Sequence record: OQ174507.1
Direction: 5' to 3' (one strand)
DNA from: Escherichia phage REP8
Length of the DNA stretch: 64,000 nucleotides
The position numbers were made by a program, and so were the translations under genes. The notes under the pieces are model-generated. The model did not search any database, had not been told where the DNA came from, and saw only the letters and a program-made list of their open reading frames with translations. How positions within the stretch are numbered: the stretch's first letter is position 1; each line of letters begins with the position of its first letter. Positions 2,749 to 6,583 of the stretch are shown one piece after another.

Positions 2749-4164
2749 ATGAGCGAATTATTTATACATGCGCACCTTCATGCAGGTCGAACTGAAAATG
2801 GTGCTGTAAACCATACTTCATCAATGTCTGCTCTTGTGGACTTTTACAAAGCTGCTGGTTCTAGCCGTAGCAATGTAGAAATCTTACCAGACTTGTTCTA
2901 CAAAGCTTTGCATGAAGATGTTGATGTTGCAGTTCGTATTTTACTGCATATGCGAGATGTACGAGAAGGTATGGGTGAGCGTAAAGCTTTCCGAACTGTT
3001 TTACTTCAAGCGATTGAAGATAAAGTTTTAGAGTCTACGCAGGTTCTTCGCATTATGGATAAGATTGCAGAACTTGGTCGTTTTGATGACTTCAAAATCT
3101 TCGTAGGTACTCGTTTCGAGACAGATGCCTTCAAACATTTAGAAGCAGCATTACTAGACCCTGCAACAGCAGGTTTAGCAGCTAAGTGGTTACCACGAGT
3201 AAAACCACGTCACAAACAGTTTGTAAAACGTTTCTGCAAGTTTGCAAACTTGAGTGAGAAAGAGTACCGCACACTGCTGTCTGCACTATCTGATACAGTT
3301 GAGCAAAAAATCTCTGCTAATGAGTTTGGTAAGATTGACTACAGTAAGATTCCTTCACTTGCTGCTGCACGTTACCAAAAACTGTTTAACCGTAAAGATG
3401 GAGAGCGATACAAAGCTTACATCGAGTCCTTATCAAATGGTGAGACTAAGATTAACGCTGGTGCTGTTTACCCATACGATGTGATTAAATCTGTCAAGTA
3501 TGGTAATGCAGATGTTGCTAATGAGCAGTGGAAAGCACTACCAAACTGGATGGTAGAAGGTGAAAACATCTTGTGTATGACTGATGTTTCAAGCTCAATG
3601 TCTTGGGTGAATCTTGGCTCAATTACTGCCCTTGATATTGGTGTATCACTTGCCTTGTATGTAGCAGAACGCAATACAGGTTGCTTTAAGAACGAGTTGA
3701 TGGTTTATTCAACAAACCCTCACTTCATCGAACTGAGTGGTGATTTACGAAACCGTCATCGTCAGGTGATGCGACACGTTGAATATGGCTCAACTAACTT
3801 ACAAGCAGCTTTTGACCGTATTCTTGAGATAGGTAAAAGAAACAACTTGACTCAGGAAGATATGCCAAGTAAGCTTATCATCTTCTCCGATATGGAGTTC
3901 AATCAGGTTGATGGTGCTAACGGTCGTACAAACTTTGAAGCAATTCAGAGTAAGTACAAAAAAGCTGGATATGAGATGCCACAACTGGTATTCTGGTATT
4001 TAGCAAACCGTAATGGTACTTGCGAAGTATCTGTTAAGGATAACGGTGTAGCAATGGTATCTGGTTTCTCTCCAGCCACTTTAAAAGCTCTGCTTGGTGG
4101 TGAGAAGTTTGACCCAACCAGTGTAATGCTCAAAGCAGTAATGATTGACCGTTATATCTGGTAA
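2749..4164 (+). CDS. vWA domain protein (MIDAS motif), possibly Ro60/TROVE-like
   Basis: 471 aa; DVSSSMS matches the DxSxS MIDAS motif of vWA domains; TROVE assignment is from memory only. Confidence 0.45.
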   Translation: MSELFIHAHLHAGRTENGAVNHTSSMSALVDFYKAAGSSRSNVEILPDLFYKALHEDVDVAVRILLHMRDVREGMGERKAFRTVLLQAIEDKVLESTQVLRIMDKIAELGRFDDFKIFVGTRFETDAFKHLEAALLDPATAGLAAKWLPRVKPRHKQFVKRFCKFANLSEKEYRTLLSALSDTVEQKISANEFGKIDYSKIPSLAAARYQKLFNRKDGERYKAYIESLSNGETKINAGAVYPYDVIKSVKYGNADVANEQWKALPNWMVEGENILCMTDVSSSMSWVNLGSITALDIGVSLALYVAERNTGCFKNELMVYSTNPHFIELSGDLRNRHRQVMRHVEYGSTNLQAAFDRILEIGKRNNLTQEDMPSKLIIFSDMEFNQVDGANGRTNFEAIQSKYKKAGYEMPQLVFWYLANRNGTCEVSVKDNGVAMVSGFSPATLKALLGGEKFDPTSVMLKAVMIDRYIW

Positions 4165-4183
4165 AAAGTTTTAAAAAGGGTAT

Positions 4184-4491: not shown

Positions 4492-4582
4492 GTTTTGACA
4501 GAAGACCAATTACAGCAAACTTAATCTACTCATCTGACAAGAAATCGGACAAAGAAGATATTTGGTCTGGTCATTAAGAATT

Positions 4583-4656: not shown

Positions 4657-4742
4657 CAAATTTACAGAAGACCGTTTACAGCAACATTTATTAAATTTTT
4701 AGCGGAAAAAATTGAAAGATACGGTCTGGTAATACTAAATAT

Positions 4743-4827: not shown

Positions 4828-4915
4828 GTGTCGTTATCCCGTAGATGGTAGCGGTGGGGACTGTAAATCCCTTGTCATTGAGACTCGGTAGGTTCGACTC
4901 CTACACGGCACACCA
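4828..4915 (+). tRNA. tRNA-Tyr (anticodon GTA), long variable arm
   Basis: 88 nt; acceptor GTGTCGT/ACGGCAC, anticodon stem GGGGA/TCCCT with loop CTGTAAA, CCA encoded. Confidence 0.55.
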
Positions 4916-4920
4916 ATAAA

Positions 4921-5006
4921 GGTTATGTAGTTTAATTTGGTTAAAATACTTCCACGTAAAAGGATATTGGGAGATGATGTGAGTTCAAGTCTCATCGTAG
5001 CCGCCA
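4921..5006 (+). tRNA. tRNA-like gene, anticodon arm unresolved
   Basis: 86 nt; good acceptor GGTTATG/CGTAGCC, T-arm GTGAG-TTCAAGT-CTCAT and CCA, but no canonical 5 bp/7 nt anticodon stem-loop found by hand. Confidence 0.35.
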
Positions 5007-5158
5007 ATTTTGAGAGGGCTATTTAGAACCTCCCTTAAAGGGTTCTTACGAGTATCCTTTAAAGGAGCAGAAGACCAAATTCAGCAAGTTACTTAAAATT
5101 TCAAGCCAATTCAATTTTGAAAAATTTAAAACTTGGTCTGGCTCAACAAATTTACAGA

Positions 5159-5283
5159 AGACCGTTTACAGCAAAACTTAAACAATCTATTTCTCGGTAA
5201 AGAAAAGGAGAAGGTTCGATTCCTTCACTCGGCAGATGTCGAGTTGGTGTAATGGTAGCACTTAAGATGATAAACAACGGTCT
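5159..5283 (+). ncRNA. circularly permuted tRNA-like module closed by an 8 bp stem (Y-RNA-like candidate)
   Basis: order is T-arm GAAGG-TTCGATT-CCTTC, acceptor 3' strand ACTCGGC, AGAT, acceptor 5' strand GTCGAGT, D-arm-like GGTGTAATGGTAGCAC; flanked by AGACCGTT (5159-5166) / AACGGTCT (5276-5283). Confidence 0.35.
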
Positions 5284-5286
5284 GGT

Positions 5287-5430
5287 AATTATCTTTGTAG
5301 ATAAGTTATTAAGCTTACCTGTGAGTATGCGACCACAAAGGGTGAAAGGGTAAATTCTAGATTTAAACCCAACAAGGCACATCGCTACAGACCTTAAGCA
5401 AGTCTGGGTAGCTTATCTACAAAGATAATT
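5287..5430 (+). repeat. structured element closed by a perfect 19 bp inverted repeat
   Basis: AATTATCTTTGTAGATAAG (5287-5305) pairs with CTTATCTACAAAGATAATT (5412-5430); ~106 nt interior holds sub-hairpins. Confidence 0.55.
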
Positions 5431-5434
5431 TAAT

Positions 5435-5510
5435 GGAAGTGTAGCAGAATGGTGATGCGGCAGACTTTTAATCTGACAGGCGATGGGTTCGAATCCCTCC
5501 ACTTCTACCA
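5435..5510 (+). tRNA. tRNA-Lys (anticodon TTT)
   Basis: acceptor GGAAGTG/CACTTCT, anticodon stem CAGA/TCTG with loop CTTTTAA, CCA encoded. Confidence 0.55.
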
Positions 5511-5514
5511 AAAT

Positions 5515-5590
5515 GGTTCAGTCGCAGATAAGGTAATGCAAGGGTCTCATAAGCCCTATGAATGTGGGTTCGATTCCCATCTGAACCTCC
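5515..5590 (+). tRNA. tRNA-Met or Ile2 (anticodon CAT)
   Basis: acceptor GGTTCAG/CTGAACC, anticodon stem AGGGT/GCCCT with loop CTCATAA, CCA encoded; 1-72 paired so not a bacterial initiator. Confidence 0.55.
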
Positions 5591-5593
5591 AAA

Positions 5594-5669
5594 GCTGTGA
5601 AAGCACATATGGATGTGCATTCGGCTGATAACCGAAAGGCAGAAGGTTCGAATCCTTCTCACAGTACCA
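5594..5669 (+). tRNA. tRNA-Ile (anticodon GAT)
   Basis: D-stem GCAC/GTGC, anticodon stem TTCGG/CCGAA with loop CTGATAA, T-arm GAAGG-TTCGAAT-CCTTC, CCA encoded. Confidence 0.65.
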
Positions 5670-5684
5670 ATTTCAATAAAGTTG

Positions 5685-5713
5685 TTGACATTGAGATGTG
5701 ACCACTTTATAGT
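5685..5713 (+). promoter_or_regulatory. sigma70-like promoter inside the tRNA array
   Basis: TTGACA, 17 bp spacer, TATAGT. Confidence 0.5.
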
Positions 5714-5917
5714 AACCTTAGTTTTCGTTGCGTAGCGTCTATTTTGCAAATTTAAAATAAATGCAAACGACAATGTTTTTCTGGCAGTAGCTTGATAGGC
5801 TAAACACCAGTGAGGTCTTCCAACCCCTCATCAAAGAATTTGGCGTACTAGCCCACGGTATGATTAATAAGGTGGGCATCTTTAAGGGCTTTCTAAGAGA
5901 GTCTTTAAAGATAATTA

Positions 5918-5999
5918 CGGGGCGTATCTCAGCTGTCTTCTAAACAGCCGTTAATCGAGTAAGTGGAGTATGCGGGTTCGAGTCCTGCCGCCTCGACCA
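5918..5999 (+). tRNA. atypical tRNA-like gene with Arg-type anticodon loop (TCT)
   Basis: 82 nt; acceptor CGGGGCG/CGCCTCG, perfect hairpin GCTGT-CTTCTAA-ACAGC, T-arm and CCA present, but only ~5 nt where the D-arm should be. Confidence 0.35.
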
Positions 6000-6238
6000 A
6001 TTTAGTTAGCAGATTACTTAGACGACCTTAGCGGGTCTTCCTGTAGGGAGGTGGTCTGTATCTCATGTTTTCCAGAACATGTAAATAATCTGAGAAGGGG
6101 CTTTACAGTGTTGAGATAATACGGTAAGCTTCGAATTATAGTATGGGACGATGTTAAGACTCTAAGGCATGAGCAACGGCTTCCAACACCGTTTCAAAGG
6201 GGTTCAACTCCTCCGTCACATGCCAAAGTCTTATTAGG

Positions 6239-6326
6239 GGTAGGTAGCGGCTAATGGTAGCCAAACTGTCTTGAAAACAGTTGCCACTGTAGAGATACGG
6301 TGAGGGTTCGACTCCTTTACTTACCG
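6239..6326 (+). tRNA. tRNA-Ser (anticodon TGA), long variable arm
   Basis: 88 nt; acceptor GGTAGGT/ACTTACC, anticodon stem ACTGT/ACAGT with loop CTTGAAA. Confidence 0.55.
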
Positions 6327-6483
6327 CCTAATAAGATTTAAAGCCAAGCTTCATTCGGATGTTGCTTTGGTATACCGCGTGTATTGTTGTACACATTGAT
6401 AAAACACCTAGTAGGTGTCACGGAGAAGAGATAATATCAAGCTCTCCAAAGGTTCTAGTCACCGGATTAAACAAGACTATGCA

Positions 6484-6505
6484 AAGACCTTTTTAGGTCT
6501 TTTTA
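6484..6505 (+). terminator. rho-independent terminator-like hairpin inside the tRNA array
   Basis: AGACC-TTTTTA-GGTCT followed by TTTTT. Confidence 0.4.
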
Positions 6506-6583
6506 GAGGGCTTCTAAGGTTATTACAGCTTGTTGTGGAACCTTGTTGCTTAGGTTCTTAGAAGTTCTCTAAAAAGACTTAAT

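What the first reader, a model, noticed from the sequence alone, without database searches (positions are those of the whole stretch)
5287..5430. Perfect 19 bp inverted repeat enclosing a ~106 nt structured core
AATTATCTTTGTAGATAAG and its exact reverse complement sit 106 nt apart, between the tRNA-like module and tRNA-Lys. The interior has further hairpins (CAGAC/GTCTG; GGGT-AAAT..ATTT-ACCC). A 19 bp perfect stem is far longer than a typical terminator. It could be a stable small RNA, an RNase III processing site for the tRNA precursor, or the ends of a miniature inverted-repeat element.
Basis: seen in the sequence. Interest (0 to 1): 0.5.

Follow-up and report, generated by a model that had tools for sequence, protein, structure and literature searches.

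The report
Conserved structured RNA before phage tRNA-Lys
The perfect 19-bp inverted repeat is the closing stem of a previously undescribed, evolutionarily conserved ~144-nt non-coding RNA. It sits in the tRNA cluster of FelixO1-like phages, next to Y-RNA-like genes and a Ro60-like protein gene, and it is not a mobile element or a terminator.

Summary
Arms 5287-5305 and 5412-5430 are exact reverse complements, and pairing extends to 24 bp (5287-5310 with 5407-5430). The window is a Felixounavirus, 99.9% identical to phage REP9.

The element is an RNA gene on the + strand. At least eight sequence types sit at the same place, 0-25 nt upstream of tRNA-Lys(UUU), in FelixO1-, Moogle- and Susp-like phages and more distant relatives. 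All keep three features:
- a long closing stem;
- a hairpin abutting its 3' strand, with a conserved 9-10-nt loop (CUUAAGCAA);
- an inner helix.

Compensatory changes are abundant: 10 of 33 pairs among close types and 26 of 33 among distant ones. Wobbles number 79 G·U against 1 A·C, which fits only a + strand transcript.

No Rfam family matches. No conserved ORF exists. There is one copy per genome and none in 5,426 E. coli genomes. SP116 lacks the element through a deletion between two tRNA T-arm repeats, not at the repeat ends. A miniature transposon and a terminator are therefore rejected.

Most likely it is a stable RNA cut out of the tRNA precursor, by RNase P at the 3' end and with the stem as an RNase III substrate and exonuclease shield. 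Its function is unproven. The leading idea is a partner of the phage's Ro60-like protein, encoded 1.1 kb upstream.

The parts
5287..5310 (+). P1 closing stem, 5' strand (24 nt; the first 19 are the perfect repeat arm)
   Evidence: It covaries with 5407-5430. In relative L244 the changes A->G, A->G and U->C in this arm give G·U or C-G pairs only on the + strand.
5323..5332 (+). Conserved motif GAGUAUGCGA. Its GCGA (5329-5332) is the proposed 5' strand of inner helix P2.
   Evidence: A GRGUAKGC-like motif is present in all types. An automated search pairs it with the segment just 5' of P4 in types C-H. In types A and B alternative pairings exist, so this helix is tentative in the window.
5348..5370 (+). 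P3 hairpin GGGUAAAUUCUAGAUUUAAACCC (apical UUCUAGA at 5355-5361)
   Evidence: TTCTAGATT is invariant in types A and B while the flanking stem differs. The extended stem covaries within type B. The apex differs in distant types.
5382..5385 (+). Proposed P2 3' strand (UCGC), 2 nt before P4
   Evidence: GCGA/UCGC here, against GCGG/CCGC, UGAGU/ACUCA, AGGAGU/ACUCCU, AGGGGU/ACCCUU, AGAGU/ACUCU and GGGU/ACCC in other types.
5388..5406 (+). P4 hairpin: stem CAGAC/GUCUG and 9-nt loop CUUAAGCAA (5393-5401), directly abutting the P1 3' strand
   Evidence: All 5 pairs are 100% paired in both alignments. All 5 show double compensatory changes among distant types. The loop consensus C(C)UUNNNNAA is kept across types.
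5407..5430 (+). P1 closing stem, 3' strand
5431..5434 (+). 4-nt spacer (UAAU) to tRNA-Lys. RNase P cleavage at 5434/5435 would create the 3' end of the RNA.
   Evidence: RNase P maturation of tRNA 5' ends is established knowledge. Cleavage here is inferred.
5435..5510 (+). tRNA-Lys(UUU), the invariant downstream neighbour of the element
   Evidence: The element is adjacent in all 9 syntenic loci that carry it.
5151..5288 (+). Upstream neighbour: a YrlA-like RNA. Its terminal stem is UUAC-AGA-AGACCGUU / AACGGUCU-G-GUAA with the UUACAGCAA motif. It encloses a T arm (5210-5226), a closed acceptor-like stem-loop (5227-5244) and a D arm (5247-5261). Its last 2 nt overlap the start of P1.
   Evidence: The T / acceptor stem-loop / D order matches that described for YrlA in PMC4201824. 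The Rfam YrlA model does not hit it.
2749..4164 (+). Ro60-like protein gene (DUF2828 + DUF7788/vWA; PHROG 850 'RNA-binding protein'). It is the candidate protein partner.
   Evidence: The AlphaFold model has pLDDT 89.7. The top 11 PDB fold matches are all Ro60/TROVE, with E from 1.7e-8 to 1.7e-6 and query TM-score 0.46-0.65. The Bas63 gp130 homologue is reported as Ro60-like and as a counter to the ppl defence.

Best explanation
The 144-nt unit (5287-5430) is a gene for a structured non-coding RNA read from the + strand, as part of the polycistronic tRNA / Y-like-RNA transcript.

It folds into a three-way junction with these parts:
- P1, a 24-bp terminal helix, which is the inverted repeat;
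- P2 and P3, an inner domain;
- P4, a hairpin with a conserved 9-nt loop, stacked against P1.

Shown: the structure, its strand, its conservation and its fixed position in front of tRNA-Lys(UUU).

Inferred: RNase P cleavage at the tRNA-Lys 5' end (5434/5435) releases its 3' end. The 5' end arises next to or within P1, at the 1-nt junction with the upstream YrlA-like RNA, by RNase III and/or RNase E. The long helix then protects a discrete, stable ~125-148-nt RNA.

Favoured but unproven function: it is an additional RNA component or regulator of the phage's Ro60-like ribonucleoprotein, a Y-RNA-like role. P1 would serve as the terminal stem and the P4 loop as a protein-contact or tertiary-contact site. 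My estimates are about 0.9 that it is a functional structured RNA, about 0.6 that it is excised as a discrete stable RNA, and about 0.35 that it works with the Ro60-like protein.
For: Structure and homology:
- Types A, B and C align with 97.9% of cells paired and 10 pairs with double changes. None of 500 shuffles reached this, and slid controls gave 0-2.
- A covariance model built only from A/B/C finds the element at the syntenic spot in all seven distant loci. E-values run from 1e-6 to 0.05 over 64 kb with filters off.
- In the five best of those, 96.9% of cells pair and 26 of 33 pairs show double changes, against at most 6 in slid controls.
- All 11 representative sequences fold with a long terminal stem plus P4.

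Strand:
- There are 61 + 18 G·U pairs against 1 + 0 A·C.
- The model scores 156 bits on the + strand and 46 bits on the - strand.

Not coding: no ORF is conserved across types.

Context:
- Sigma-70-like promoters lie at 4183 and 4274, upstream of the cluster.
- No terminator-like site lies next to the element.
- tRNA-Lys starts 4 nt downstream.
- Other long leader/trailer or pre-tRNA stems occur in the same cluster: 6226-6238/6327-6339 around tRNA-Ser and 6493-6582 before tRNA-Leu.

Ro60 link:
- A Ro60-like gene lies 1.1 kb upstream.
- Four Y-like RNAs with the motif UUACAGCAA or AUUCAGCAA lie between that gene and the element.
- The same motif-bearing small RNAs flank DUF2828 genes in 75 distant phage loci, with 59 hits on the gene strand against 4 on the other strand.
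- The P4 loop CUUAAGCAA resembles that motif.
- The PhageMaP preprint proposes that unidentified Y RNAs lie among the 'tRNA genes' downstream of the Bas63 homologue.
Against: - No expression or processing data exist for this RNA. No Felixounavirus transcriptome paper was found.
- The Ro60 link is circumstantial. P1 in the window is a perfect duplex without the bulged helix typical of Ro60-binding sites.
- The element lacks the canonical UUACAGCAA placed next to the 5' stem strand.
- The P4 loop varies in L239, L240 and L243 (CCUAUGCAA, CUUGCACA(A), CUUGAACAA), while the Y-like RNAs of the same phages keep CAGCAA. The two motifs therefore do not co-evolve.
- The element is dispensable for plaque formation in at least one isolate, SP116.
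- The interior consensus (P2, P3) is not resolved for types A and B.
- The covariation alignment of distant types was fitted to the model's structure, which favours pairing.
Confidence: 0.55

Rival explanations
1. It is only a processing or insulating element. P1 is an RNase III site that separates the Y-like-RNA block from the tRNA-Lys/Met/Ile block, as the stems flanking rRNAs do. The interior would be a spacer without a function of its own.
For: The duplex is 24 bp long. Other long stems and leader/trailer helices sit next to tRNAs in the same cluster. Model R1 weakly hits tRNA-Ser and tRNA-Asn genes flanked by similar AU-rich leader/trailer helices in relatives. The outer part of P1 is the most sequence-conserved part between types A and B.
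Against: Interior features are conserved across phages whose Ro60-like proteins are only 52-63% identical. These features are the P4 stem with five covarying pairs and a conserved loop, the GRGUAKGC motif and the P2 helix. A spacer would not keep these.
Confidence: 0.2
2. It is a cis-acting leader dedicated to tRNA-Lys(UUU). It would control folding, processing or the level of that tRNA, or act as a decoy for a nuclease that targets tRNA-Lys.
For: The element lies 0-25 nt upstream of tRNA-Lys(UUU) in every one of the 9 syntenic loci that have it, although the upstream neighbour varies: a YrlA-like RNA, a Y-like RNA or tRNA-Ala. From my own knowledge, tRNA-Lys(UUU) is a known target of host anticodon nucleases (PrrC, PARIS).
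Against: ESCO50 keeps the intact element although its tRNA-Lys is deleted after 18 nt. No complementarity or mimicry between the element and tRNA-Lys is conserved across types, as far as inspection shows. L044 has tRNA-Lys(UUU) without the element.
Confidence: 0.15
3. It is a miniature inverted-repeat transposable element (MITE), or a remnant of one.
For: It has terminal inverted repeats and is of small size.
Against: There is a single copy in the window and no copy in 5,426 E. coli genomes. The locus is the same in all relatives. No flanking direct repeat is visible. The SP116 deletion ends in T-arm repeats, not at the repeat ends. The arms evolve by compensatory changes with G·U asymmetry.
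Confidence: 0.01
4. It is a DNA-level palindrome, such as a protein-binding site, replication origin or recombination site, or else an intrinsic terminator or attenuator.
For: It is a perfect 19-bp palindromic pair. The type B cassette in BPSELC-1 was exchanged with break-points in the arms.
Against: The count of 79 G·U against 1 A·C shows selection on a + strand transcript, not on duplex DNA. There is no U-tract and no terminator-like call. tRNAs of the same orientation follow at once.
Confidence: 0.04

Closest known systems
Bacterial and phage Y RNAs (YrlA, YrlB, Yrn1; phiLo Yrl1/Yrl2), partners of Ro60
   Same: It is encoded close to a Ro60-like gene and next to a YrlA-like RNA. It has a long stem formed by the 5' and 3' ends that closes a structured internal module. 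Several such RNAs appear to come from one precursor, as YrlA and YrlB do in M. smegmatis (PMC4201824).
   Different: It has no tRNA-like module and gets no hit from the Rfam YrlA model. In this phage the closing stem has no bulged Ro60-binding helix and no CGAA motif. The protein belongs to the divergent DUF2828 family and is similar to Ro60 only at fold level. Binding is untested.
Stable 'species 1' and 'species 2' RNAs (rnaC, rnaD) of the phage T4 tRNA cluster (from my own knowledge; the T4 genome review was not available)
   Same: They are small stable RNAs of roughly 120-140 nt, encoded among phage tRNA genes, co-transcribed and cut out by the tRNA-processing enzymes, with function unknown.
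   Different: They come from a different phage lineage. No link between the T4 RNAs and a Ro60-like protein is known to me.
RNase III processing stems, such as those flanking 16S/23S rRNA and the T7 early R sites
   Same: It is a duplex of at least 20 bp made by sequences that flank a functional RNA inside a polycistronic precursor.
   Different: Here the enclosed RNA is a 100-nt three-way junction of unknown function, and cleavage has not been shown.
Dictyostelium Class I RNAs (Rfam RF01414), and the phage 'stem + UUACAGCAA' small RNAs found here next to DUF2828 genes
   Same: The P4 hairpin (stem + CUUAAGCAA + stem) looks like a minimal version of that motif. The four neighbours in the window (4499-4570, 4665-4729, 5068-5141, 5155-5285) are fuller versions.
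   Different: The element as a whole is not of this class. The motif lacks one residue, sits in a hairpin loop rather than beside the terminal stem, and does not co-vary with the canonical motif.

Membership tests
Y RNA / YrlA (Rfam RF02553) | Encoded adjacent to a Ro60 (TROVE + vWA) gene | tested here: met
   The ORF at 2749-4164 is Ro60-like by fold. The top 11 PDB matches are all Ro60/TROVE. The element lies 1.1 kb downstream on the same strand.
Y RNA / YrlA (Rfam RF02553) | Long stem formed by pairing of the 5' and 3' ends | tested here: met
   P1 is 24 bp and covaries.
Y RNA / YrlA (Rfam RF02553) | Conserved bulged helix or sequence that binds Ro60 | tested here: not met
   P1 in the window is an uninterrupted duplex. 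No CGAA or metazoan-type motif is present. The local candidate motif UUACAGCAA is absent from its canonical position.
Y RNA / YrlA (Rfam RF02553) | tRNA-like module (T arm, D arm, acceptor-like stem) and a match to the Rfam model | tested here: not met
   There is no YrlA or tRNA hit in 5287-5430 at E up to 10, and ARAGORN finds nothing there. The upstream neighbour 5151-5288 has the module but also fails the Rfam model.
Y RNA / YrlA (Rfam RF02553) | Physical association with the Ro60 protein | not testable with these tools
   Needs immunoprecipitation or gel-shift assays.
RNase III processing stem | About two turns (at least 20 bp) of dsRNA within a precursor transcript | tested here: met
   The helix is 24 bp. 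It lies between RNA genes of one orientation, with promoters upstream and no terminator.
RNase III processing stem | Staggered cleavage by RNase III | not testable with these tools
   Needs end-mapping in rnc+ and rnc- hosts, or an in-vitro assay.
Miniature inverted-repeat transposable element | Multiple copies at unrelated loci | tested here: not met
   There is one copy in 64 kb and none in the E. coli genomes searched.
Miniature inverted-repeat transposable element | Presence/absence polymorphism exactly at the repeat ends, with a target-site duplication | tested here: not met
   The SP116 deletion runs from T arm to T arm. ESCO50 keeps the element. No flanking direct repeat is seen.
Intrinsic terminator | G+C-rich hairpin followed by a U-tract | tested here: not met
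   The stem is AU-rich and is followed by UAAUGG. The scan makes no call there.
tRNA | Cloverleaf recognised by ARAGORN or the Rfam tRNA model | tested here: not met
Any Rfam 15 family | Covariance-model match | tested here: not met
   There is no match inside 5287-5430 at E up to 10 in a 441-nt search, nor at E up to 1 in a 6-kb search.

The most novel reading that the evidence does not exclude
The element would be a third, non-tRNA-like class of RNA partner of a phage Ro60-like (DUF2828) ribonucleoprotein that counters host defence. It would belong to a wider, undescribed RNA system: small 'stem + (CC)UUACAGCAA ... stem + UG' RNAs that flank DUF2828 genes across very diverse phages and closely resemble the Class I RNAs of Dictyostelium. 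The literature describes those Class I RNAs as unique to social amoebae and of unknown mechanism. If true, Class I RNAs would be Y-RNA-like ligands of a Ro60-like protein family.
Probability: 0.3. Interest if true: 0.85.

Novelty: new member of a known kind. Interest (0 to 1): 0.6.

Why it matters
FelixO1-like phages are widely used for Salmonella and E. coli typing, biocontrol and therapy. In public records this 430-nt stretch of their tRNA cluster is unannotated or mis-annotated as a hypothetical protein or an odd tRNA.

The region encodes a conserved structured RNA, beside YrlA-like and Class-I-like RNAs and downstream of a Ro60-like gene. The Bas63 homologue of that gene is reported to counter the ppl defence. 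This gives concrete candidates for the 'missing Y RNAs' of that system and makes them directly testable by deletion, immunoprecipitation and end-mapping.

The element also adds an RNA family that Rfam lacks. The side observation that Class-I-like RNAs accompany DUF2828 genes in many phages could open a route to the long-unknown mechanism of Dictyostelium Class I RNAs.

Tried and rejected
- **Rfam scans of the region** gave no family for the element.
- **Hammerhead ribozyme.** I considered one because of a CUGUGAG...GAAA resemblance and the three-way junction. I rejected it because the GAA between helices is missing, the core is incomplete and Rfam is silent.
- **phi29 pRNA-like packaging RNA.** The three-way junction and the palindromic loops UCUAGA and CUUAAG suggested it. 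I rejected it because loop palindromy is not conserved in types B and D-H, and these phages encode a terminase large subunit with no known pRNA requirement.
- **Amber-suppressor-like anticodon loop.** UUCUAGA in P3 suggested it. I rejected it because the rest of a cloverleaf is absent and the loop is not conserved beyond types A and B.
- **P4 as a mimic of the tRNA-Lys anticodon arm.** The stems are similar only in the Felix clade, not in L037.
- **Minus-strand 76-aa ORF** (5152-5382, annotated in phage skuden). It is not conserved.
- **IMG/VR pattern scan** with AGCAAG N25-55 GCAGAATGG. It was too unspecific and gave only chance matches.
- **Resources not available.** The afdb50 fold library was not available. 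The T4 genome review was not held. No Felixounavirus transcriptome paper was found.
- **Co-variation between the P4 loop and the Y-like motif across phages.** I looked for it and did not find it.

Full report
**1. The observation**

The window is a Felixounavirus genome segment. Positions 4900-5700 are 99.9% identical to Escherichia phage REP9 and 96.5% identical to Salmonella phage FelixO1.

The repeat is as described. AATTATCTTTGTAGATAAG at 5287-5305 and its exact reverse complement at 5412-5430 lie 106 nt apart. With G·U pairs the helix reaches 24 bp, 5287-5310 with 5407-5430.

The 144-nt RNA folds at -47.8 kcal/mol, z = -6.6 against dinucleotide shuffles. Only three inverted repeats of at least 16 nt with arms within 400 nt exist in the 64 kb. 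tRNA-Lys(UUU) begins 4 nt downstream.

**2. It is a conserved RNA structure on the + strand**

Public phage records, IMG/VR contigs and assemblies reached through the neighbouring protein gave versions of the element at the same place:
- type A, in most FelixO1-like phages;
- type B, in BPSELC-1, Mooglevirus and Suspvirus;
- type C, in L036;
- five more distant types, in L037/L242, L241, L239/L240, L243 and L038 (Yersinia phage P778).

The Ro60-like proteins of these phages are only 52-63% identical to that of the window. In all of them the element ends 0-25 nt before tRNA-Lys(UUU), although the upstream neighbour differs. L044 (47% identity) has tRNA-Lys(UUU) without the element.

Every representative folds into a long terminal stem of about 13-27 bp. 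A 5-6-bp hairpin (P4) with a 9-10-nt loop lies directly against the 3' strand of that stem.

The covariation evidence is as follows:
- On the A/B/C alignment, 97.9% of cells pair and 10 of 33 pairs show changes on both sides. None of 500 shuffles reached this, and slid controls gave 0-2.
- A covariance model built only from A/B/C recovers all seven distant loci at exactly the syntenic coordinates. E-values run from 1e-6 to 0.05 in 64 kb with filters off.
- In the five best of those, 96.9% of cells pair and 26 of 33 pairs have double changes, including all five P4 pairs. Slid controls gave at most 6. That alignment is fitted to the model, which favours pairing, but the margin is large.

The non-Watson-Crick pairs are 79 G·U against 1 A·C. 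The model scores 156 bits on the + strand and 46 on the - strand. Selection therefore acts on a + strand transcript, the strand of all the tRNAs.

**3. Anatomy in the window**
- P1 is 5287-5310 paired with 5407-5430.
- A conserved motif, GAGUAUGCGA, lies at 5323-5332 (GRGUAKGC in other types).
- The GCGA of that motif (5329-5332) can pair with UCGC at 5382-5385. The equivalent helix covaries in types C-H: GCGG/CCGC, UGAGU/ACUCA, AGGAGU/ACUCCU, AGGGGU/ACCCUU, AGAGU/ACUCU and GGGU/ACCC. It remains tentative for types A and B, which offer alternatives.
- P3 is 5348-5370, with an apical CUAG conserved in types A, B and C.
- P4 is 5388-5406, with loop CUUAAGCAA.

The overall shape is a three-way junction closed by a long helix.

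**4. What it is not**
- *Known RNA family:* no Rfam 15 family matches, and neither ARAGORN nor the tRNA model sees a tRNA.
- *Protein-coding:* the 76-aa minus-strand ORF annotated in one relative is absent in types B, C and E.
- *Terminator:* the stem is AU-rich with no U-tract, and tRNAs follow.
- *MITE:* there is one copy per genome and none in 5,426 E. coli genomes.

The only absence found, in phage SP116, is a 275-bp deletion between the T-arm repeat of the upstream tRNA-like module and the T arm of tRNA-Lys. It removes the element together with parts of both neighbours. Conversely, ESCO50 has lost tRNA-Lys but keeps the element. SP116 also shows that the element is not essential for growth in the laboratory.

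BPSELC-1, otherwise a typical Felixounavirus, carries the type B interior. The break-points lie inside the conserved outer arms, so this is a cassette exchange by homologous recombination, not transposition.

**5. Surroundings**

The ORF at 2749-4164 (DUF2828 + DUF7788/vWA; PHROG 850 'RNA-binding protein') gives a confident AlphaFold model with pLDDT 89.7. Its top eleven PDB matches are all Ro60/TROVE proteins, over the full length, with E from 1.7e-8 to 1.7e-6. Sequence searches against the PDB find nothing, so the similarity is at fold level only.

A preprint on the Felixounavirus Bas63 reports that the homologue, gp130, is Ro60-like and counters the ppl defence. It speculates that some downstream 'tRNA genes' are Y RNAs (10.1101/2024.10.10.617714).

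Between this gene and the element lie four RNAs that share a stem, CAGAAGACC...GGUCUGG, and the motif UUACAGCAA (AUUCAGCAA in the third). They are at 4499-4570, 4665-4729, 5068-5141 and 5155-5285.

The fourth encloses a T arm, a closed acceptor-like stem-loop and a D arm. This is the permuted-tRNA topology that defines YrlA (PMC4201824), although the Rfam YrlA model does not reach it. It ends 1 nt before P1.

Sigma-70-like promoters lie at 4183 and 4274, and another at 5685. The Y-like RNAs, the element and tRNA-Lys/Met/Ile are therefore probably one transcript; this is an inference.

**6. Mechanism**

Shown: a conserved, strand-specific three-way-junction RNA glued to the 5' side of tRNA-Lys(UUU).

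Inferred: RNase P cleavage at 5434/5435 makes its 3' end. The 24-bp P1 is long enough to be an RNase III substrate and would otherwise shield both ends from exonucleases. The product would be a stable ~125-148-nt RNA, much like the species 1 and 2 RNAs of the T4 tRNA cluster (from my own knowledge). Comparable stems occur elsewhere in the cluster: a 13-nt leader/trailer helix around tRNA-Ser (6226-6238/6327-6339) and a 26-nt hairpin just before tRNA-Leu (6493-6582). The model also weakly hits tRNAs with such flanks in relatives. This suggests a common processing logic.

Function is unknown. The best lead is the Ro60-like protein, for three reasons:
- the element is embedded in the block of Y-like RNAs;
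- it has the Y-RNA hallmark of a long terminal stem closing a structured module;
- its most conserved loop (CUUAAGCAA) resembles the UUACAGCAA motif.

Against this, the loop does not co-vary with that motif across phages, P1 lacks a bulge, and binding is untested. I put this link at about 0.35. A pure processing element (0.2) and a tRNA-Lys-specific leader (0.15) remain open.

**7. Side finding**

I scanned 75 distant phage loci that encode DUF2828 proteins of about 40-47% identity, from many environments. The composite pattern was: 6-bp stem strand, then WUNCAGCAA, then 8-170 nt, then the complementary strand, then (U/A)G.

It occurs 59 times on the gene strand and 4 times on the other strand. 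Thirty-four hits lie within 800 nt downstream of the gene, and about 13 more lie 50-300 nt upstream of it. Most are 51-66 nt long, and most begin with G. Many read GGUUCC-UUACAGCAA...GGAACC-(A/U)G. Some enclose a tRNA-like module (L083, L087; YrlA model 28.7 bits in L111).

CC+UUACAGCAA is the consensus of the 11-nt motif in Rfam's Dictyostelium Class I RNA model. Class I RNAs are 42-65 nt, with a 5' G, a short terminal stem, the motif next to the 5' stem strand and a 3' CUGU. They are described as unique to Dictyostelia (PMC7919456).

The Rfam Class I model is the best hit on these phage RNAs: 28.9 bits (E = 0.001) in L050, and 24, 20 and 16 bits in L111. All are below the gathering score of 41.5. 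DUF2828 proteins occur in eukaryotes, at least in plants. Whether Dictyostelium has one was not determined.

**8. Verdict**

The element is a new RNA family of a known general kind, a structured small RNA co-encoded with phage tRNAs and Y-like RNAs. It is of moderate to good interest because of its tie to a Ro60-like anti-defence locus in widely used phages.

Noticed in passing
window 2749-4164 (+): This 471-aa DUF2828/DUF7788(vWA) protein is Ro60-like by predicted fold. All top 11 PDB matches are Ro60/TROVE. It is the homologue of Bas63 gp130, reported to counter the ppl defence system.
   Followed up: yes
window 4499-4570, 4665-4729, 5068-5141, 5155-5285 (+): Four unannotated small RNAs interspersed with the tRNAs share the stem CAGAAGACC...GGUCUGG and the motif UUACAGCAA (AUUCAGCAA in the third). 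The fourth encloses a T arm, a closed acceptor-like stem-loop and a D arm, which is the YrlA (bacterial Y RNA) topology. The Rfam YrlA model does not detect it.
   Followed up: partly
L044-L118 (75 IMG/VR loci), e.g. L050 5910-5970, L047 5919-5969, L111 5887-6491: Small RNAs of the form stem + (CC)UUACAGCAA ... stem + (U/A)G, mostly 51-66 nt and mostly starting with G, flank DUF2828 Ro60-like genes in very diverse phages. There are 59 hits on the gene strand against 4 on the other. They closely resemble Dictyostelium Class I RNAs in 11-nt motif, architecture and size. The Rfam Class I model is the best hit, at up to 28.9 bits, below its gathering score. Class I RNAs are reported as unique to social amoebae.
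   Followed up: partly
window 4921-5003 (+): The Rfam tRNA model calls a tRNA here (41 bits) but ARAGORN does not. In relatives it is annotated variously as tRNA-Asp, tRNA-Thr, tRNA-Tyr or 'tRNA-OTHER'.
   Followed up: no
window 6493-6582 and 6226-6339 (+): A 26-nt (88%) inverted repeat forms a hairpin ending 1 nt before tRNA-Leu(UAG). A 13-nt leader/trailer inverted repeat brackets tRNA-Ser(UGA). Relatives show similar AU-rich leader/trailer helices around tRNA-Ser and tRNA-Asn (e.g. L038 8506-8617). These may be common processing stems.
   Followed up: partly
L245 (Salmonella phage SP116) against window 5210-5497: A natural 275-bp deletion between the T-arm repeats GGTTCGA(T/A)TCC fuses the 5' part of the YrlA-like RNA to the 3' part of tRNA-Lys. 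It removes the 144-nt element. The phage is a viable isolate.
   Followed up: yes
L006 (phage ESCO50) and L001 (FelixO1): ESCO50 lacks the upstream tRNA-like block and has lost tRNA-Lys, tRNA-Met and tRNA-Ile but keeps the element. FelixO1 has an HNH endonuclease gene between tRNA-Lys and tRNA-Ile. The tRNA cluster is a hot spot of rearrangement.
   Followed up: partly
L005 (Salmonella phage BPSELC-1) 1008-1153: This Felixounavirus is about 98% identical to the window up to 5300 but carries the Moogle/Susp-type interior of the element. The exchange break-points lie inside the conserved outer stem arms.
   Followed up: partly
window 5917-5996 (+): This tRNA-Arg-like sequence is not called by ARAGORN here. 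REP9 annotates it as 'tRNA-OTHER' and REP5 as tRNA-Arg(TCT). It contains GGAGUAUGCGG, the same motif as in the element's P2 region, with a 12-nt identity to the type C element of L036. This could be chance or a hint of tRNA ancestry.
   Followed up: no
window 5685-5713 (+): A near-consensus sigma-70 promoter (TTGACA, 17 nt, TATAGT) lies right after tRNA-Ile. It heads a 570-nt stretch without called genes (5670-6238) that gives weak tmRNA-like and tRNA-like Rfam hits.
   Followed up: no
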